This document shows positions 42,198 through 48,765 of a DNA stretch of 64,000 nucleotides, piece after piece (position 1 is the first letter of the stretch; every line of letters begins with the position of its first letter). The stretch comes from Escherichia phage 235Ecol030PP. The DNA lies in sequence record PP355091.1, one strand, 5' to 3'. Below the pieces are notes generated by a model. It was not told the DNA's origin, did not search any database, and saw nothing but the letters and a program-made list of their open reading frames with translations. The position numbers were made by a program, and so were the translations under genes.

Positions 42198-43481
42198 ATG
42201 GCTAAAATCAACGAACTTCTGCGCGAATCAACCACAACGAATAGCAACTCAATCGGTCGCCCAAATCTCGTTGCTTTGACTCGCGCTACCACTAAATTAA
42301 TATATTCTGACATTGTAGCAACGCAAAGAACTAATCAACCTGTTGCTGCTTTTTATGGTATCAAATACCTTAACCCAGACAATGAATTTACATTTAAAAC
42401 TGGTGCTACTTATGCTGGCGAAGCTGGATATGTAGACCGAGAACAAATCACAGAATTAACAGAAGAGTCTAAATTAACTCTCAATAAAGGCGATTTATTC
42501 AAATATAATAATATCGTTTATAAAGTATTAGAAGATACACCATTTACTGATATTGAAGAAAGCGATTTAGAATTAGCTCTTCAGATTGCAATTGTTCTTT
42601 TAAAGGTTCGTCTATTTTCTGACGCAGCGTCAACAAGCAAATTTGAAAGCTCTGATAGCGAAATTGCGGATGCTAGATTCCAGATTAATAAATGGCAAAC
42701 CGCAGTTAAATCTCGTAAACTTAAAACTGGCATCACAGTTGAATTAGCGCAAGATTTAGAAGCAAATGGATTCGATGCTCCTAATTTCTTGGAAGATTTG
42801 CTTGCAACTGAAATGGCAGATGAAATCAATAAAGATATTCTGCAGTCTTTGATTACAGTATCAAAACGTTATAAAGTTACAGGAATTACTGATACTGGAT
42901 TCATTGATTTGAGTTATGCATCTGCACCTGAAGCTGGTCGTTCATTATATCGAATGGTATGTGAAATGGTTTCGCATATCCAAAAAGAATCAACTTATAC
43001 AGCAACGTTCTGTGTTGCTTCAGCTCGTGCTGCTGCGATTCTTGCTGCATCAGGTTGGTTAAAACATAAACCAGAAGATGATAAATATCTTTCACAAAAT
43101 GCCTACGGGTTCTTAGCTAATGGTTTACCTCTTTATTGCGATACTAACAGCCCATTAGATTATGTAATCGTCGGTGTGGTAGAAAATATTGGCGAAAAAG
43201 AAATTGTTGGATCAATTTTCTATGCTCCGTATACAGAAGGTCTTGACTTAGATGACCCTGAACATGTAGGCGCATTTAAAGTTGTTGTTGATCCAGAAAG
43301 CTTACAACCGTCTATCAGTTTATTAGTTAGATATGCTTTATCAGCAAATCCTTATACCGTAGCAAAAGATGAAAAAGAAGCAAGAGTAATTGATGGTGGA
43401 GACATGGATAAAATGGCGGGTCGTTCAGATTTGTCTGTTTTATTAGGTGTTAAGCTACCAAAAATTATTGTTGATGAATAA
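42198..43481 (+). CDS. 24: gp24 capsid vertex protein
   Basis: 427 aa, shares segments with gp23 (e.g. ELAQDL). Confidence 0.95.
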   Translation: MAKINELLRESTTTNSNSIGRPNLVALTRATTKLIYSDIVATQRTNQPVAAFYGIKYLNPDNEFTFKTGATYAGEAGYVDREQITELTEESKLTLNKGDLFKYNNIVYKVLEDTPFTDIEESDLELALQIAIVLLKVRLFSDAASTSKFESSDSEIADARFQINKWQTAVKSRKLKTGITVELAQDLEANGFDAPNFLEDLLATEMADEINKDILQSLITVSKRYKVTGITDTGFIDLSYASAPEAGRSLYRMVCEMVSHIQKESTYTATFCVASARAAAILAASGWLKHKPEDDKYLSQNAYGFLANGLPLYCDTNSPLDYVIVGVVENIGEKEIVGSIFYAPYTEGLDLDDPEHVGAFKVVVDPESLQPSISLLVRYALSANPYTVAKDEKEARVIDGGDMDKMAGRSDLSVLLGVKLPKIIVDE

Positions 43482-43486
43482 AACAA

Positions 43487-43502
43487 AGGGACCTTTCGGT
43501 CC
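43487..43502. terminator. bidirectional terminator between gene 24 (+) and rnlB (-)
   Basis: GGGACC-TTTC-GGTCCC flanked by A-run upstream and T-run downstream. Confidence 0.7.
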
Positions 43503-43510
43503 CTTTTTAT

Positions 43511-44515
43511 TTAACTTACCAATTCAATCCAAGCTGGACGAAGTACATCTTGCACCATTTTAACTAATTCCTTTTTAATCAAAGAAGGATTATCCGCTTG
43601 AGTTAGAGTAATACCTTCACGAGAAGTTTCTTCCAAAATATCTTGAACAGTTAGTCCCATCACCTTTCCAAAATCTTTTGGACCAATTTCGCCAATTTTA
43701 GAAATAACGTTATTTACCCGGTTCAGTGTAACGTAACAAGCTAAAATTCCTACCAATTTGTTATCAGCTTCTGATAGCTCAACTTTAGCTTTAATAGGCT
43801 TATCAGACTTTTTCTTTTCACTAAATTTAGAATTCTTGCATTTGATGGCTACACGATTGCGATTAGGCAGCCAAGAAGGATAACAAGGTTTCAATACATA
43901 TCCTTCAGCGGTAAATACTTCGCCTTTGGCTTCAGCTTTCCAAACACATTTGTTAGCGTCAATTAAACCTGCATTATCTACGGTAAAATTATAAGACGGA
44001 ACAACAGAATCCAAATCATTTGGAAGTTTAATAAGATCTTCAAATTTACCGCGACCTAAAAGTGGAGCCATTTTAAATTTAAATGTATTACAAAACGATT
44101 CCATCATGTAATCATCAACATAAGTTACATCACCACTTTCGGTAGTGACAATAATGTCAAATACATAAAAATCTTTATCGCCATAATCAACATTCTTCTG
44201 AATGCCAGGTCCAGCGAATTCGCCAAAGACTTGATAAGACACAATCGCTGAGGTTTCCATAATATCTTGTACTGCTTCGATAGAATCAGCGTAATTCTTT
44301 AGAATAATTTCATACCCAAAGAAATCTTCAGCAGGAAGAATAGGACCAGTACGTTTAGCGCAAGTTACTTTATCGCGCTCAATAATCAATGAGAAATTTG
44401 TGCCGTGAATCTTTTCACGAGCTACCCACTCCCCACCAGTCAATCCCAAGCTATAAAGTTTTTCAATAAATTTAGAGTTGTAATGATTTTCAAGACTGCT
44501 ATACTTTTTAAACAT
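43511..44515 (-). CDS. rnlB: RNA ligase 2
   Basis: 334 aa; nucleotidyltransferase motif I KIHGTN. Confidence 0.9.
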
Positions 44516-44524
44516 AATTAATCC

Positions 44525-44803
44525 TCAAAATGTAATTTCTAACCAATCACCATCACGCTGATCACTATTGACTTTAAAGCTGAATCCTTCTTTTCTCAGC
44601 CAATCACCAATTTCTTCAGTAATCAATTTATCACGAGCAATACAATAATAATTAAAATGTGTTTTACCTTGTTCAGCTGCTTTATTAGCAAGTTCCGAAA
44701 AATCTTTAATAAAACACTCTAGCTTAAACTGTTTACTTTTGAATGCTTTTTCGCGTAATTGATTAGCAAAAGATTCATTTTCATAAAGATCATACTGTTC
44801 CAT
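44525..44803 (-). CDS. hypothetical protein (24.2-like)
   Basis: 92 aa ORF with ATG start. Confidence 0.6.
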   Translation of the reverse strand: MEQYDLYENESFANQLREKAFKSKQFKLECFIKDFSELANKAAEQGKTHFNYYCIARDKLITEEIGDWLRKEGFSFKVNSDQRDGDWLEITF

Positions 44804-45005
44804 TTTTCACCTTTTTATTGATATGTCTTTTTCTATAGACAACTTTTTCTCGAGTTTCAAATTTATTTTTAGCAGTCATAGCTCGAGCCCATAATACAGC
44901 CACTTCTTTTGCCTGTAAGTTTAATTCACGAGCAATTTCAATGAATGACTTTCCAGACTCATGAAGAGTAAACACCACAACCTCAGTTCTCATAATCAAT
45001 CTCAT
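44790..45005 (-). CDS. small helix-turn-helix protein (24.3-like)
   Basis: 71 aa; HTH-like segment GKSFIEIARELNLQAKEVAVLWARA. Confidence 0.55.
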   Translation of the reverse strand: MRLIMRTEVVVFTLHESGKSFIEIARELNLQAKEVAVLWARAMTAKNKFETREKVVYRKRHINKKVKNGTV

Positions 45006-45074
45006 GTTATCGAGTTGGTGCCATTATATACATCATTTTCTGATTGTGTTTTGTGTGCTTTCAAAATGAAGAAA

Positions 45075-45088
45075 GGGGCCGAAGCCCC
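45075..45088 (-). terminator. rho-independent terminator after hoc
   Basis: minus RNA GGGGC-UUCG-GCCCC followed by U-rich tract. Confidence 0.65.
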
Positions 45089-45094
45089 TTATGA

Positions 45095-46513
45095 TTATGG
45101 ATAGGTATAGATGATACCAGTTTCTAAAGCAGTTTTATGAATGATGTATCCATTACGCGATTCTTGAACATCAACTTCTGGATAGTCTTTCATCATCTTC
45201 TGAAGAGTGTAACGATGCAGGTAGTATTTACTATCTGGATCTTCAGTTTTCCAATCTTTACCTTCTTCGGTCATTTTTTGGATTTCATCCATAACCCACC
45301 AACCGCACCAGATATAAGCTGAAGTACGGTGTGGAAGAGGATGAACATAAGGCAATTCACCTTTTGGTTCCGGAGCAACTTTATCAGTTACCTGAACTTG
45401 ACCTGTTGTTTTAACTGTTTTGCTATCATAGTCAGTTGCTGTAACGACAGCAGTAACTTCAATAGTTTGACTTCCAACAGATGAGGTATCGACAGTATAT
45501 ACGTTAGTTGACCCTTCTACAGGAGAAGAATCTTTCTTCCATGAGTAAGTAATTTGTGCTGCTTCAGGTGCGCCAGTAACATTAGCAGTAAATGTAGCCG
45601 AAGCATCTTTCTGAACGTTAATAGAAGGAGGAGTCAATGTAACCTGTGGATTCATTGTCTTCTTATTAACCGTTAATGATACTTCATTCGAAGTAACTTC
45701 CTTTTCATTGTAATTTTCTGCAGTTACTTGGGCTACGCATTTAATTCTTTTTACTCCACTTGTAGTTGGAGTATAGCTAAATGTAGAGTTAGTTTCTCCA
45801 CTAATTTGAGAATCATCTACATACCATTTATATGTAGCAGACGCTCCATCAGGTTGAGAAACTAAAGCAGCAGTAAATTGAACCGGGGTTCCAATTACTC
45901 CTGCTGGAGGACTATCAGGAGTTACTGCCAAAGTAGTTGTCTGCTCCTTTTTATTAACAGTCAGTGATACTTCATTAGAAGTAACGCTTAGTGCATCATA
46001 ATCTGTCGCGGTTACTTGAGCTACACACTTAATTTTTTTAACTCCGCTTGTGGCAGGAGTGTAATTGAATGTAGCGCTAGTTGCTTCGTCCACAGGAGAA
46101 CCGTCAACGTACCATTGATACGTAGCAGATGCACCTGATGGCTGTGAAGCTAAAGCAGCAGTAAATTCAATAGCTGTTCCGATTACTCCAGCGTCAGGGC
46201 TATTAGGAGTTACAGCTAAGGTAGTCGTTTGTGTCTTATTTTGAACTGTGATAGTTGTACTAATTTCAGCTGTTTCGGGACTACTATCGGCAACTTGATT
46301 TGTTGCAACTACTTTAATAGTCTTTTGACCGGCAGGTCCTTTTAATACATAATTAAAAGTTGCTGACGTTTCTTCCTGTTGAGCACCGTCTACAGTCCAA
46401 ACATATGTAATAGGTCCATCTCCAGTTTGACCACTGGGTGTAGCAGTAAACTGCTGAGTCTGATCTATAACTCCAGTAGGTGTTTTAGGAGTTATATCAA
46501 CTGTAAAAGCCAT
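45095..46513 (-). CDS. hoc: Hoc outer capsid decoration protein, four Ig-like domains
   Basis: 472 aa; N- and C-termini match T4 Hoc as recalled; two adjacent 96-aa Ig-like units are ~75% identical. Confidence 0.9.
   Translation of the reverse strand: MAFTVDITPKTPTGVIDQTQQFTATPSGQTGDGPITYVWTVDGAQQEETSATFNYVLKGPAGQKTIKVVATNQVADSSPETAEISTTITVQNKTQTTTLAVTPNSPDAGVIGTAIEFTAALASQPSGASATYQWYVDGSPVDEATSATFNYTPATSGVKKIKCVAQVTATDYDALSVTSNEVSLTVNKKEQTTTLAVTPDSPPAGVIGTPVQFTAALVSQPDGASATYKWYVDDSQISGETNSTFSYTPTTSGVKRIKCVAQVTAENYNEKEVTSNEVSLTVNKKTMNPQVTLTPPSINVQKDASATFTANVTGAPEAAQITYSWKKDSSPVEGSTNVYTVDTSSVGSQTIEVTAVVTATDYDSKTVKTTGQVQVTDKVAPEPKGELPYVHPLPHRTSAYIWCGWWVMDEIQKMTEEGKDWKTEDPDSKYYLHRYTLQKMMKDYPEVDVQESRNGYIIHKTALETGIIYTYP
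45653..46228 (-). repeat. tandem in-frame duplication (2 x 288 bp) encoding two Ig-like domains within hoc
   Basis: protein units aa 96-191 and 192-287 align throughout (TTTLAVTP...VKKIKCVAQVTA...EVSLTVNKK); DNA copies diverged. Confidence 0.75.
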
Positions 46514-46522
46514 AAGTTATCC

Positions 46523-47203
46523 TTATTTTAATGTTACGAAAGAAGAATTGCGTGTTTCACGAATTAGAACTGATCCGTCACGATTAATGTAGTAAATTAA
46601 GCTAAATAAAGTTTGGTGTGCTGACGCGTGTTCAAAACTAGTTGGATGAGATTTCCAATCAGGAGTTTCAGCGATCCATTGATAAATCCACCAAGGAACC
46701 GTACAGAATCCTGGATTTTTCCCCAATAATTGAAGATTCGGACTAAAGTTTTCCGGAAGAGTAAATACAGACGGCTTTTCAGATTCAATAATCTCAGCTA
46801 CAGCCTGTTCGAATTTTTCTTCAACAAAAGGAGTATCTTCAATCAAAACATCGGTATTTTCAGGAATTTTATCCGTTTCTACTACTTCAATTTTAATGTC
46901 AGATTTAACAGGAGAATCAATCAGAAGTGCTGCTTCTGGATTGACTTCTTCATCGTCATATTTTAACCCCTCTGCAGCATCAGCAGCATCAATTAAGTCT
47001 TTAATAGATAACCCATCAGTCTCTGGCATAGGTTCACTAGCGAGCTTCTGGAGGGCTTCTTCAATATCAGCAACGATATTATCAAAAGATTTATTCTTTT
47101 TGACCTTTATACCAAACTGTTCAGCGTATTCAGCTAATTTAGCTTTAGCTTCTTTGTTATCATCAAGAGCCTTCAGCTCTGCAATATAATCTTTATCTAT
47201 CAT
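46523..47203 (-). CDS. inh: Inh, inhibitor of prohead protease
   Basis: 226 aa, position between hoc and uvsW. Confidence 0.85.
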   Translation of the reverse strand: MIDKDYIAELKALDDNKEAKAKLAEYAEQFGIKVKKNKSFDNIVADIEEALQKLASEPMPETDGLSIKDLIDAADAAEGLKYDDEEVNPEAALLIDSPVKSDIKIEVVETDKIPENTDVLIEDTPFVEEKFEQAVAEIIESEKPSVFTLPENFSPNLQLLGKNPGFCTVPWWIYQWIAETPDWKSHPTSFEHASAHQTLFSLIYYINRDGSVLIRETRNSSFVTLK

Positions 47204-47216
47204 AATATTTCCTCAG

Positions 47217-47224
47217 TATAAATA
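47217..47224 (+). promoter_or_regulatory. late promoter TATAAATA upstream of uvsW
   Basis: exact TATAAATA about 30 nt upstream of ATG 47254. Confidence 0.55.
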
Positions 47225-47253
47225 TAGATATATTTATTACATGGTATTTAGAC

Positions 47254-48765
47254 ATGACTGACATTAAAGTACATTTTTATGATTTTAGTCACGTGAGAAT
47301 TGATTGTGAAGAAAGTACATTTCATGAACTCCGTGATTTCTTTAGCTTTGAAGCTGATGGGTATCGTTTTAATCCGAAGTACAGATATGGCCACTGGGAT
47401 GGACGAATCCGTCTTTTAGATTATAATCGTCTTCTTCCATTCGGCTTAGTCGGGCAAATTAAAAAGTTCTGTGATAACTTTGGCTATAAAGCCTGGATTG
47501 ACCCACAAATTAATGAAAAAGAAGAATTATCAAGAAAAGATTTTGATGAATGGCTTTCTAAATTAGAAATCTATTCAGGAAATAAAAGAATTGAACCACA
47601 CTGGTATCAAAAAGATGCAGTGTTCGAAGGATTAGTTAATCGTCGTAGAATTCTTAATCTTCCAACATCTGCAGGTAAATCTTTAATTCAAGCTTTGCTT
47701 GCGCGATATTATTTGGAAAATTATGAAGGTAAAATTCTTATCATTGTTCCAACAACTGCTCTGACAACTCAGATGGCTGATGACTTCGTCGACTATCGTC
47801 TATTCAGTCATGCAATGATAAAGAAAATTGGTGGCGGAGCATCAAAAGATGATAAATATAAAAATGATGCACCAGTCGTTGTTGGTACATGGCAAACTGT
47901 AGTTAAACAACCGAAAGAATGGTTCTCACAGTTTGGAATGATGATGAATGATGAATGCCATCTTGCTACAGGAAAAAGTATTTCATCCATCATATCAGGA
48001 TTAAATAACTGCATGTTTAAATTTGGTCTATCAGGTTCATTACGTGATGGCAAAGCCAATATCATGCAGTACGTTGGAATGTTTGGTGAAATATTTAAGC
48101 CAGTAACGACTTCTAAATTAATGGAAGATGGACAAGTAACTGAGTTAAAAATTAATAGTATTTTTCTTCGCTATCCCGATGAGTTCACTACTAAATTAAA
48201 GGGAAAAACTTATCAAGAAGAAATAAAAATTATTACTGGGCTCAGTAAAAGAAATAAATGGATCGCTAAATTAGCTATTAAGCTTGCACAAAAAGATGAA
48301 AACGCTTTTGTCATGTTTAAACATGTATCGCATGGTAAAGCTATTTTCGATTTAATTAAAAATGAATACGATAAAGTTTATTACGTATCAGGGGAAGTTG
48401 ATACCGAAACCCGCAACGTAATGAAAACCTTAGCTGAAAATGGTAAAGGAATAATTATAGTAGCTAGTTATGGTGTATTTTCTACTGGTATTTCAGTTAA
48501 AAATCTGCATCATGTTGTTTTAGCGCACGGCGTTAAATCAAAAATCATTGTATTACAAACAATCGGTCGTGTATTACGTAAGCATGGTTCTAAAACAGTC
48601 GCAACAGTCTGGGACCTCATAGATGACGCGGGCGTCAAGCCAAAATCTGCTAATACGAAAAAGAAATATGTTCATTTGAACTATCTTTTAAAACACGGCA
48701 TTGATCGTATTCAGCGTTACGCAGATGAAAAATTTAATTACGTAATGAAAACAGTCAATTTATAA
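47254..48765 (+). CDS. uvsW: UvsW DNA helicase
   Basis: 503 aa; Walker A PTSAGKS and DECH box. Confidence 0.93.
   Translation: MTDIKVHFYDFSHVRIDCEESTFHELRDFFSFEADGYRFNPKYRYGHWDGRIRLLDYNRLLPFGLVGQIKKFCDNFGYKAWIDPQINEKEELSRKDFDEWLSKLEIYSGNKRIEPHWYQKDAVFEGLVNRRRILNLPTSAGKSLIQALLARYYLENYEGKILIIVPTTALTTQMADDFVDYRLFSHAMIKKIGGGASKDDKYKNDAPVVVGTWQTVVKQPKEWFSQFGMMMNDECHLATGKSISSIISGLNNCMFKFGLSGSLRDGKANIMQYVGMFGEIFKPVTTSKLMEDGQVTELKINSIFLRYPDEFTTKLKGKTYQEEIKIITGLSKRNKWIAKLAIKLAQKDENAFVMFKHVSHGKAIFDLIKNEYDKVYYVSGEVDTETRNVMKTLAENGKGIIIVASYGVFSTGISVKNLHHVVLAHGVKSKIIVLQTIGRVLRKHGSKTVATVWDLIDDAGVKPKSANTKKKYVHLNYLLKHGIDRIQRYADEKFNYVMKTVNL

What the first reader, a model, noticed from the sequence alone, without database searches (positions are those of the whole stretch)
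44525..45005. Small HTH protein and partner ORF in an early transcription unit beside rnlB
The 71-aa ORF contains a helix-turn-helix-like segment (GKSFIEIARELNLQAKEVAVLWARA) and overlaps the next small ORF by 14 nt. A putative -10 TATAAT lies upstream at fwd ~45028-45033. A phage-encoded DNA-binding regulator next to RNA ligase 2 is uncharacterised as far as I know.
Basis: inference. Interest (0 to 1): 0.3.

Follow-up and report, generated by a model that had tools for sequence, protein, structure and literature searches.

The report
T4 genes 24.3 and 24.2
The two small ORFs are the catalogued but functionally unstudied phage T4 genes 24.3 and 24.2: 24.3 is a real, conserved, dispensable helix-turn-helix protein, and it is transcribed from an already mapped T4 middle promoter, so this is an ordinary gene pair whose job is still unknown.

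Summary
The window is a T4-type phage, 99.5-99.7% identical to T4 and PhiZZ23 across this stretch. The ORFs are T4 genes 24.3 (Pfam DUF2774) and 24.2, upstream of rnlB. The real 24.3 start is the second ATG (44993), giving 67 aa rather than 71. The TATAAT lies at 45028-45023. The 14-nt overlap is exact.

AlphaFold2 (pLDDT 87) gives a three-helix HTH. It superposes on LuxR/NarL-type and sigma-70 region 4 domains at rmsd 1.1-1.4 Å. A disordered basic tail follows; its motif (R/K)EKVVYRKR is the most conserved part of the family.

The TATAAT is the -10 of the published MotA-dependent middle promoter P24.3, whose start site maps to window 45016. It is not a classic early promoter. A second mapped promoter, PrnlB, lies inside 24.2.

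T4 omics detect both proteins (RNA class early, protein class middle). Two genome-wide screens find both genes dispensable.

DUF2774 occurs only in T4-like phages. rnlB follows it in 37 of 39 loci, but 24.2 in only 24 of 39. At least three loci keep DUF2774 without rnlB.

No function is published. Nucleic-acid binding is inferred from fold and charge only. Interest is low.

The parts
45073..45090 (-). Terminator-like GC hairpin (AAGGGGCTTCGGCCCCTT followed by a T-rich run) just after the hoc stop codon; it separates hoc from the 24.3 unit
   Evidence: Equivalent hairpins lie upstream of 24.3 in many related loci.
45041..45050 (-). Position where a MotA box should sit, 12 bp upstream of the -10. 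The sequence AACACAATCA departs strongly from the consensus (a/t)(a/t)(a/t)TGCTTtA
   Evidence: Sequence. Consensus and spacing from PMC2988021. Other genera carry canonical TTGCTTTA boxes at the same position.
45023..45028 (-). -10 hexamer TATAAT of the T4 middle promoter P24.3
   Evidence: The hexamer occupies -12 to -7 relative to the published start site.
45016..45016 (-). Transcription start of P24.3 (T4 coordinate 110108), an A; the 5' UTR is 23 nt
   Evidence: PMC2988021 Table 1, mapped through NC_000866 onto the window.
45000..45003 (-). Shine-Dalgarno-like GAGA, 7 nt upstream of the 24.3 start codon
   Evidence: Related loci have ATGAGG/ATGAGA at the same position.
44790..44993 (-). 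Gene 24.3 (67 aa plus stop), DUF2774.
44853..44993 (-). Three-helix HTH domain of gp24.3 (residues 1-47): helices 3-12, 17-24 and 28-47
   Evidence: AF2 pLDDT 93-96 over this part. Foldseek finds RcsB, EvgA, NarL, DosR, GerE and SigW domain 4 at rmsd 1.1-1.4 Å over 40-46 residues.
44826..44852 (-). Codons for the near-invariant motif REKVVYRKR (residues 48-56) at the start of the disordered basic tail (residues 48-67, 44793-44852)
   Evidence: V52, Y53, R54 and K55 are 98-100% conserved and R56 92% across 92 family members. Mean tail net charge is +7.9. Tail pLDDT is 60-68.
44807..44811 (-). Shine-Dalgarno GGTGA of gene 24.2, lying inside the 3' end of 24.3
44525..44803 (-). Gene 24.2 (92 aa), PHROG 2416. 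It overlaps 24.3 by 14 nt
44645..44650 (-). -10 hexamer TATTAT of the T4 middle promoter PrnlB, inside 24.2. The start site is the G at 44638 (T4 coordinate 109763)
43511..44515 (-). rnlB (RNA ligase 2, 334 aa). Its GAGGA ribosome-binding site (44522-44526) overlaps the 24.2 stop codon
43485..43506 (.). Two-way terminator-like hairpin between rnlB and gene 24; it marks the end of the unit

Best explanation
The locus is the T4 prereplicative unit 24.3-24.2-rnlB.

Shown:
- Transcription starts at the mapped middle promoter P24.3, with the -10 TATAAT at 45028-45023 and +1 at 45016. It runs through 24.3 and the overlapping 24.2 into rnlB, which has an additional internal promoter, PrnlB.
- gp24.3 is a 67-aa accessory protein found only in T4-like phages. 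It consists of a LuxR/sigma-70-region-4-like three-helix HTH followed by a disordered, strongly basic tail with the near-invariant motif (R/K)EKVVYRKR.

Inferred:
- gp24.3 binds nucleic acid, most probably duplex DNA. The long third helix would lie in a groove and the basic arm would add backbone or minor-groove contacts.
- It would then act as a small, non-essential modulator of transcription or of another nucleic-acid transaction during the early-to-middle phase of infection.

gp24.2 is a separate, faster-evolving small alpha/beta protein of unknown role. In T4 it is translationally linked to 24.3 but is not its obligate partner.
For: - Identity: 99.5-99.7% nucleotide identity to T4-type phages across the stretch. 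The T4T annotation names the genes 24.3, 24.2 and rnlB. The exact 67-aa and 92-aa sequences are already in public collections as T4 24.3 and 24.2.
- Family: DUF2774 at E 4e-31.
- Fold: AF2 mean pLDDT 86.9, three helices. Foldseek against the PDB returns LuxR/NarL/GerE and sigma-70 region 4 HTH domains, several solved bound to DNA, at rmsd 1.1-1.4 Å and probability about 1. A family profile against PDB sequences hits RpoE region 4 at E 0.004, plus the VirB and IstA HTHs. Sub-threshold GerE, HTH_38 and Sigma70_r4_2 matches recur in single members.
- Tail: VVYRK is 98-100% conserved; mean net charge is +7.9 for the tail against +1.4 for the HTH part.
- Promoter: PMC2988021 Table 1 lists P24.3 at 110108 and PrnlB at 109763. 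These map to window 45016 and 44638, each exactly 7 nt after a -10 hexamer. Related genera carry canonical MotA boxes or early-type promoters at the same place.
- Expression: RNA class early and protein class middle for 24.3, 24.2 and rnlB (PMC9697503 supplement).
- Selection: only synonymous differences in 24.3 among close relatives.
Against: - No binding experiment exists, and no conserved inverted repeat or operator-like motif lies near the promoter.
- By my hand alignment with NarL, based on my recollection of the NarL-DNA complex, the positions that contact bases in NarL-type recognition helices are small hydrophobic residues here (A32, V33, A36).
- The strongest conservation is in the tail rather than in the recognition helix.
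- The domain lacks the fourth helix of LuxR-type domains.
- All HTH-family Pfam scores are below the curated cut-offs.
- Foldseek E-values are not significant (0.14-1) because the domain is short.
- Knock-down and transposon disruption give no phenotype on laboratory E. coli, so any regulatory role is dispensable there.
Confidence: 0.45

Rival explanations
1. gp24.3, with or without gp24.2, is an accessory factor of the RNA ligase 2 module. It would bind RNA, or an RNA-DNA hybrid, through its arginine/lysine-rich arm and help Rnl2 find or hold its substrate, for example nicked tRNA or other RNA damaged by host nucleases.
For: - DUF2774 is followed on the same strand by rnlB within 0.15-1.5 kb in 37 of 39 loci from many genera. 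This includes Providencia/Proteus-type phages where no hoc or inh match was detected in the fetched locus.
- In T4 the three genes are co-transcribed and the cistrons overlap or abut.
- The basic tail resembles arginine-rich RNA-binding peptides (inference).
- The 24.2 family gives three weak pointers to RNA-binding folds resembling the ribosomal protein S8 N-domain or R3H.
Against: - DUF2774 persists without rnlB in RB49 (L004), in L024 and in the divergent contig L048.
- Gene order is generally conserved among T4-like phages, so adjacency alone is weak evidence.
- rnlB has its own promoter.
- All the S8/R3H signals are below significance and rest on a low-confidence model, pLDDT 66.
- No interaction data exist.
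Confidence: 0.2
2. gp24.3 does not bind nucleic acid. It would be a protein-binding host-takeover or counter-defence factor that uses the sigma-70-region-4-like domain as a mimic or docking module, for example towards RNA polymerase or an anti-sigma-like partner. The invariant VVYRKR peptide would serve as a short linear docking motif.
For: - Sigma-70 region 4 is among the best sequence and fold matches.
- The positions used for base contacts in NarL-type helices are not polar or basic here (my hand alignment; column statistics).
- An invariant 6-9 residue motif inside a disordered tail is typical of peptide-docking motifs (inference).
- Dispensability on laboratory strains is typical of host-range and anti-defence accessory genes.
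Against: - No partner is known.
- The tail's charge of +8 is at least as well explained by nucleic-acid binding.
- The conditional HIDEN-SEQ comparisons seen in the supplement show no significant change for 24.3 (log2 -0.38, p 0.61) or 24.2 (log2 -0.82, p 0.16).
Confidence: 0.15
3. One or both ORFs are chance reading frames or decaying remnants with no function.
For: - No laboratory phenotype.
- 24.2 is absent from many relatives and accumulates non-synonymous changes: 1-4 non-synonymous against 2-3 synonymous among close relatives.
Against: - 24.3 is conserved across many genera with near-invariant residues, shows only synonymous changes among close relatives, and folds with high confidence.
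- Both proteins are detected by proteomics.
- 24.2 homologues keep a conserved C-terminal motif, QRDG(D)W.EI.F, across genera.
Confidence: 0.02

Closest known systems
Phage T4 gp24.3 / Pfam DUF2774 (PF11242), PHROG 1566
   Same: The 67-aa product is identical to the protein annotated as 24.3 in T4T and many Tequatrovirus records. It matches the full length of the DUF2774 model.
   Different: Nothing differs in sequence. The NC_000866 reference entry is 11 aa shorter because 33 bp between two XhoI sites are missing there. The family is listed as having unknown function.
LuxR/GerE (NarL/FixJ-type) C-terminal DNA-binding domains, e.g. RcsB, EvgA, NarL, DosR, GerE
   Same: The scaffold helix, positioning helix and recognition helix have the same geometry (rmsd 1.1-1.4 Å over 40-46 residues). 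The sequence pattern matches: G at the turn, IA in helix 2, S/T cap of helix 3. One public source already labels the protein a NarL/FixJ-type regulator.
   Different: - It is a stand-alone 67-aa protein with no receiver or ligand domain.
- There are three helices, not four; the dimerising fourth helix is replaced by an elongated helix 3 and a disordered basic tail.
- The GerE Pfam score is below the cut-off (18.3 against 23.5 bits).
- The base-contact positions are not conserved as polar or basic residues.
Sigma-70 region 4 (4.2) of bacterial sigma factors, e.g. SigW domain 4, RpoE
   Same: The HTH fold and sequence profile are similar: RpoE E 0.004, SigW domain 4 bound to the -35 element, sigma-70 ECF models.
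   Different: There is no region 2, so it is not a sigma factor. Scores are far below the family cut-offs. There is no evidence of core RNA polymerase or -35 element binding.
Small phage or transposon HTH proteins with a basic arm (resolvase/Hin HTH_7, IS30/IS21 N-terminal HTH_38)
   Same: A minimal tri-helical HTH is combined with a flexible basic arm that, in those systems, inserts into the minor groove (my knowledge). Weak HTH_38 and HTH_7 matches occur in several members, and PHROG 3356 'transposase' scores E 6e-4.
   Different: The arm is C-terminal here rather than N-terminal. No catalytic domain is attached and no recombination sites are evident.
T4 MotA-dependent middle promoters (sigma appropriation)
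   Same: The TATAAT at -12 to -7 and the start site coincide with the published promoter P24.3. Related genera have canonical MotA boxes 12 bp upstream of their -10 elements.
   Different: In this window and in T4 the MotA-box position reads AACACAATCA, a strong departure from TGCTTtA.

Membership tests
Pfam DUF2774 (PF11242) / T4 gp24.3 orthologue | Full-length match to the family HMM above the gathering score | tested here: met
   107.5 bits against a 29.2-bit cut-off, E 4e-31, profile positions 1-63 of 63. All 92 aligned relatives also match.
Pfam DUF2774 (PF11242) / T4 gp24.3 orthologue | Same sequence and genomic position as T4 gene 24.3 (between hoc and 24.2/rnlB) | tested here: met
   100% identity to T4T gp24.3, with the gene order hoc-24.3-24.2-rnlB-24.
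LuxR/GerE-type HTH (PF00196) | Pfam score at or above the gathering threshold | tested here: not met
   18.2-18.3 bits against 23.5. Only 2 of 92 family members reach E <= 0.05.
LuxR/GerE-type HTH (PF00196) | Four-helix domain with the HTH as helices 2-3 and a fourth helix used for dimerisation | tested here: not met
   The AF2 model has three helices (3-12, 17-24, 28-47) followed by a disordered tail.
LuxR/GerE-type HTH (PF00196) | Superposable HTH core | tested here: met
   RcsB, EvgA, NarL, DosR and GerE at rmsd 1.1-1.5 Å over 40-46 residues, probability 0.93-1.0. E-values are only 0.14-1 because the domain is short.
LuxR/GerE-type HTH (PF00196) | Sequence-specific DNA binding | not testable with these tools
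No candidate operator was found.
Sigma-70 family (region 4) | Regions 2 and 4 both present; region 4 model above threshold | tested here: not met
   Only 67 aa. Sigma70_r4_2 scores 13.1 bits against 25.7; TIGR02937 scores 12.7 against 42.9.
T4 middle (MotA-dependent) promoter | Sigma-70-type -10 element TAtaaT at -12 to -7 relative to a mapped start site | tested here: met
   TATAAT at 45028-45023. The published start 110108 maps to 45016.
T4 middle (MotA-dependent) promoter | MotA box (a/t)(a/t)(a/t)TGCTTtA 12 +/- 1 bp upstream of the -10 | tested here: not met
   AACACAATCA lies at 45050-41. The review notes that active middle promoters with strongly deviant boxes exist. Canonical boxes occur in other genera.
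T4 middle (MotA-dependent) promoter | Dependence on MotA and AsiA in vivo | not testable with these tools
   Listed as an identified middle promoter in PMC2988021 Table 1, citing Stoskiene et al. 2007. That primary paper is not held, so I could not read it.
T4 early promoter | -35 element (TTGACA/GTTTAC) 16-18 bp upstream of the -10, usually with TGn and an UP element | tested here: not met
   The hexamers at 16-18 bp are AACACA, AAACAC and AAAACA. There is no TGn. The scan finds only TTGAAA-18-GAAAAT, 9 of 12 matches, out of register with the mapped start.
T4 gp24.2 family (PHROG 2416; PF26862 in precomputed tables) | Match to the family profile | tested here: met
   PHROG 2416 at E 1e-40. 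Near-identical cluster representatives carry PF26862. That model is not in the local Pfam copy, so its description is unknown to me.
Ribosomal protein S8 N-domain / R3H-like RNA-binding fold (for gp24.2) | Significant fold or profile similarity | tested here: inconclusive
   Foldseek: R3H at E 0.048; S8 at E 0.2-0.6 with TM 0.42-0.50, on a model of pLDDT 66. PDB profile search: S8 at E 0.15. Pfam Ribosomal_S8 in 2 of 13 members, best E 9e-4.

The most novel reading that the evidence does not exclude
gp24.3 is not a conventional DNA-binding regulator. It would be a dedicated factor that uses a sigma-70-region-4/LuxR-like domain plus the invariant VVYRKR arm for one of two purposes: to mimic or engage part of the host transcription machinery, or to target a specific RNA or RNA-DNA structure for the neighbouring RNA ligase 2, whose role in infection is not known to me. 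Either would give a first handle on why T4-like phages keep the 24.3-rnlB module.
Probability: 0.12. Interest if true: 0.55.

Novelty: already known. Interest (0 to 1): 0.18.

Why it matters
Little changes for phage biology. The genes, their family, their promoter and their dispensability are already on record.

The useful output is tidy annotation:
- the correct 67-aa start;
- the fold assignment of DUF2774 as a LuxR/sigma-70-region-4-like HTH with a conserved basic arm;
- the exact mapping of P24.3 and PrnlB onto this window;
- the finding that 24.2 is an optional neighbour;
- the identification of several misleading public labels.

If someone later shows that gp24.3 binds a defined nucleic acid or works with RNA ligase 2, that would help explain a T4 enzyme that is much used in the laboratory. 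I know of no established role for it in infection.

Tried and rejected
- Alt.-3 relationship. One Klebsiella phage record labels the DUF2774 homologue 'anti-TA protein alt3'. T4 Alt.-3 shows no similarity to gp24.3 (no alignment at E <= 100) or to gp24.2 (E 0.087 over 17 residues), so the label is unfounded.
- 'DNA primase-helicase subunit' labels. These are 75-80-aa DUF2774 proteins. The label appears to be propagated from an older KPP95 entry.
- Classic early promoter. No -35 element or TGn is present. This reading is replaced by the published middle promoter.
- Operator search. No inverted or direct repeat lies in 44950-45110 apart from one 8-nt pair 93 nt apart. No motif beyond the promoter and ribosome-binding elements is conserved across genera.
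- RNA elements. No Rfam family reaches E <= 0.2 in 43300-45300; the weak hits all sit on the rnlB/gene 24 terminator.
- Paralogues. There is no second DUF2774-like ORF in the 64-kb window.
- Bacterial homologues. None were found in 185,579 species genomes with the motif-seeded scan.
- Word-indexed and exhaustive protein searches with single sequences found only close relatives: 4 hits for 24.3 and 3-4 for 24.2. A profile was needed to reach 114 clusters.
- 24.2 structure. With only near-identical sequences allowed into the alignment, the model is poor (pLDDT 66), so its fold matches are not reliable.
- Literature. No paper in the library holds 'DUF2774' or 'gp24.3'. Searches for gp24.2, 'gene 24.2' and 'gene 24.3' returned only unrelated papers. 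Miller et al. 2003 and Stoskiene et al. 2007 are not held.

Full report
**What the window is.**
The stretch 44400-45150 is 99.5-99.7% identical to T4, T4T, PhiZZ23 and many other Tequatrovirus genomes. In T4T the same DNA is annotated hoc - 24.3 - 24.2 - rnlB, with gene 24 on the other strand. The RefSeq T4 record agrees. The two ORFs of the finding are therefore T4 genes 24.3 and 24.2. The exact 67-aa and 92-aa products are already in public collections, seen on at least 1000 and on hundreds of contigs respectively. They are named 'Uncharacterized protein 24.3' / 'DUF2774 domain-containing protein' and 'gp24.2 conserved hypothetical protein'.

**Checking the observation.**
The ORFs are at the stated coordinates. 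The 14-nt overlap is exact. Two details need correction.

- Start codon. The 71-aa frame begins at the first ATG (45005), but the real start is almost certainly the second ATG (44993), for four reasons:
  - The transcript starts at 45016 (see below), which leaves 11 nt and no Shine-Dalgarno sequence before the first ATG. A GAG(A) lies 7 nt before the second.
  - The N-termini of homologues from eight genera align with the second methionine.
  - Related phages have the same ATGAGG/ATGAGA ribosome-binding motif, and its ATG is out of frame with the start codon in three of the four other genera checked by hand.
  - T4T and a recent T4 re-annotation use the 204-nt gene.
- TATAAT position.

The features are not chance.
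- DUF2774 matches at E 4e-31.
- tblastn finds the protein in 1075 phage records.
- A profile search finds 114 clusters, all carrying PF11242.
- Among close relatives 24.3 shows 1-4 synonymous and no non-synonymous codon differences. 24.2 shows 2-3 synonymous and 1-4 non-synonymous differences.
- T4 proteomics detects both products.

**The protein gp24.3.**
I built a 92-sequence alignment and gave it to AlphaFold2. The model has mean pLDDT 86.9, with 93-96 over residues 1-50. It shows helices at 3-12, 17-24 and 28-47, then a tail without secondary structure at pLDDT 60-68.

Fold and profile comparisons agree on the type of domain:
- Foldseek against the PDB puts LuxR/NarL/GerE-type domains (RcsB, EvgA, NarL, DosR, GerE, TraR), an archaeal transcription factor and SigW domain 4 on top. 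Rmsd is 1.1-1.4 Å over 40-46 residues and probabilities are near 1. E-values are only 0.14-1, as expected for so short a domain.
- The family profile searched against PDB sequences hits RpoE region 4 (E 0.004) and the HTHs of VirB and the IS21 transposase IstA.
- Single members give sub-threshold matches to GerE, HTH_38, Sigma70_r4_2, HTH_7 and sigma-70 ECF models.

The domain belongs with the LuxR/sigma-70-region-4 tri-helical HTHs, but it meets none of the curated family cut-offs and lacks the fourth helix of LuxR-type domains.

The most conserved part of the family is not the HTH. It is the start of the tail:
- V52, Y53, R54 and K55 are 98-100% conserved, and R56 is 92%.
- The preceding (R/K)-E-K is 85-98% conserved.
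- The tail carries a mean net charge of +7.9, against +1.4 for the HTH part.

By a hand alignment with NarL, the positions that contact bases there correspond to A32, V33 and A36 here. The NarL contact residues are from my own knowledge.

I conclude that a nucleic-acid-binding role is likely, but it is inferred. The basic arm may matter as much as the helix.

**Transcription.**
The promoter scan finds no -35 element 16-18 bp from the TATAAT. The explanation is in the literature. Table 1 of Hinton's review of T4 prereplicative transcription lists identified middle promoters P24.3 (start 110108), PrnlB (109763) and Phoc (111757), all credited to Stoskiene et al. 2007.

Mapping through NC_000866 gives the following:
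- Position 110108 is the A exactly 7 nt after the TATAAT, which is window 45016.
- Position 109763 is the G 7 nt after a TATTAT inside 24.2, which is window 44638.

Its MotA-box position reads AACACAATCA, far from (a/t)3TGCTTtA. The review notes that such deviant boxes occur. In other genera the same intergenic spot carries other promoter types:
- canonical boxes, for example TTGCTTTA-12-TTAATA;
- early-type GTTTACA-17-TAAGAT promoters;
- in RB49, TTGACA-16-TATAAT.

Prereplicative expression of the gene is therefore conserved while the promoter class varies. RNA-seq and proteomics of T4 class 24.3, 24.2 and rnlB as early RNA and middle protein. hoc RNA is also classed early, which fits Phoc inside inh. 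I could not read the primary paper, so MotA dependence rests on the review.

**Neighbours and distribution.**
I examined 39 loci from phage genomes and IMG/VR contigs.
- DUF2774 is followed on the same strand by rnlB within 0.15-1.5 kb in 37 of them.
- A 24.2 homologue lies between the two in 24.
- In several loci (L018, L038-L041) 24.3 abuts rnlB with no 24.2.
- Jiaodavirus- and Karamvirus-type loci have one or two other small ORFs in between.
- RB49 and L024 have DUF2774 but no rnlB or 24.2.
- In a divergent metagenomic T4-like contig, DUF2774 sits between uvsW and inh/hoc with no rnlB nearby.
- In CC31 the DUF2774 gene is fused in frame to the next small ORF, which is not a 24.2 homologue.

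No relative was found in 185,579 bacterial and archaeal genomes. There is no paralogue elsewhere in the window. 24.2 is thus an optional neighbour. The link to rnlB is frequent but not universal, and it is hard to separate from the general conservation of gene order in these phages.

**gp24.2.**
The family is small and divergent. Single-sequence phmmer against 1.8 billion representatives finds four proteins. Homologues from several genera share the C-terminal motif QRDG(D)W.EI.F.

The structure tool would accept only near-identical sequences, so the model is weak (pLDDT 66). It shows two helices followed by a beta-alpha-beta-beta unit. Three independent but non-significant pointers go to the N-domain of ribosomal protein S8 and to R3H domains. 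I record this as a lead, not a result.

**Genetics and literature.**
- CRISPRi-ART knock-down of rnlB, 24.2 and 24.3 gives 'Not Fit' calls, meaning no fitness effect.
- HIDEN-SEQ transposon mapping tolerates insertions at 14 of 14 sites in 24.3, 23 of 23 in 24.2 and 84 of 84 in rnlB. No significant conditional effect appears in the comparisons I could see.
- No paper in the searchable library mentions DUF2774 or gp24.3, or gives a function for either gene.

**How it most likely works.**

*Shown:*
- The unit is a prereplicative transcript from P24.3, with an extra promoter for rnlB.
- 24.3 and 24.2 overlap, and each has its own ribosome-binding site.
- gp24.3 is a conserved, expressed, dispensable protein made of a LuxR/sigma-70-region-4-like HTH and a basic arm.

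*Inferred:* gp24.3 binds DNA, or possibly structured RNA, using helix 3 and the VVYRKR arm. It would act as a minor modulator of transcription or of another nucleic-acid transaction. I put about 0.45 on nucleic-acid binding as the mechanism, and less on 'transcription regulator' specifically.

*Rivals:*

| Rival | Confidence |
|---|---|
| Substrate-targeting accessory of Rnl2 | 0.2 |
| Protein-docking mimic acting in host takeover or counter-defence | 0.15 |
| Non-functional ORF (excluded for 24.3) | 0.02 |

**Novelty and score.**
Gene, family, promoter and dispensability are all on record. One automated source even labels the protein a NarL/FixJ-type DNA-binding regulator. The finding is real but ordinary. 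I score interest at 0.18.

Noticed in passing
window 44849-44887 (two CTCGAG sites at 44849-44854 and 44882-44887); L002 around 2470-2480: The RefSeq T4 record NC_000866 lacks the 33 bp between these two XhoI sites, so its gp24.3 is 56 aa and misses RAMTAKNKFET. T4T and this window have the 33 bp. This looks like a small XhoI fragment lost from the original sequence assembly rather than a biological deletion. CRISPRi-ART (PMC11879866) still uses the 171-nt gene model.
   Followed up: partly
window 45095-46513 (-): hoc encodes 472 aa here against 376 aa in T4. That is roughly one extra Ig/PKD-like module in the head decoration protein. IMG/VR locus L015 has the same long form (93% identity over the full length).
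   Followed up: no
window 47204-47253, between inh (46523-47203, -) and uvsW (47254-48765, +): The homing endonuclease gene segE, present at this spot in T4 (112057-112674), is absent. Only 50 bp separate inh and uvsW.
   Followed up: no
L003 2977-3204; L044 1998-2240; L045 1977-2204; protein clusters: DUF2774 homologues carry several public labels: 'anti-TA protein alt3', 'DNA primase-helicase subunit', 'nucleoside triphosphate hydrolase' and 'cyanate lyase'. None fits a 63-80-aa HTH protein. T4 Alt.-3 shows no similarity.
   Followed up: yes
L046 6752-7333 (-), Enterobacter phage CC31: The CC31 gene called 24.3 (193 aa) is DUF2774 fused in frame to a roughly 115-aa ORF. That ORF is a separate, overlapping gene in fGh-Ecl01, BovinicusUrsus and Roth01, and it is absent from T4. 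This is either a natural fusion or a one-base sequencing error.
   Followed up: partly
window 44525-44803 (-), gp24.2; alignment A4: Three weak, independent pointers link the 24.2 family to the RNA-binding N-domain of ribosomal protein S8 and to R3H domains: Foldseek E 0.05-0.6, PDB profile E 0.15, and Pfam Ribosomal_S8 in 2 of 13 members at best E 9e-4. This is suggestive next to an RNA ligase gene, but it is below significance and rests on a model of pLDDT 66.
   Followed up: partly
L011, L023, L025-L031, L037, L042 (MotA-box type); L007, L016-L019, L034, L038-L041 (early type); L004 (RB49): The promoter in front of the DUF2774 gene changes class between genera. Some have a canonical MotA box plus a -10. 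Others have the T4-early-like GTTTACA-17-TAAGAT. RB49 has TTGACA-16-TATAAT. T4 has a strongly deviant MotA box.
   Followed up: partly
L003 4919-5467; L004 4165-4752; L046 4831-5376: In Jiaodavirus-type (Roth01) and Karamvirus (CC31) phages a DprA-like/SLOG (YspA) gene follows rnlB directly. In RB49 the same kind of gene sits where rnlB would be. T4 and this window lack it.
   Followed up: no
L048 3579-3812 (Logan SRR14300940 contig): A divergent T4-like contig carries DUF2774 between uvsW and inh/hoc, upstream of the head genes, with no RNA ligase gene in the 8.8-kb locus fetched.
   Followed up: no
around window 46953 (-), inside inh: The published middle promoter Phoc (T4 111757) lies inside inh. 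That explains why T4 RNA-seq classes hoc RNA as early although Hoc protein is late. I derived the window coordinate by offset from the inh start codon and did not check it against the sequence.
   Followed up: partly
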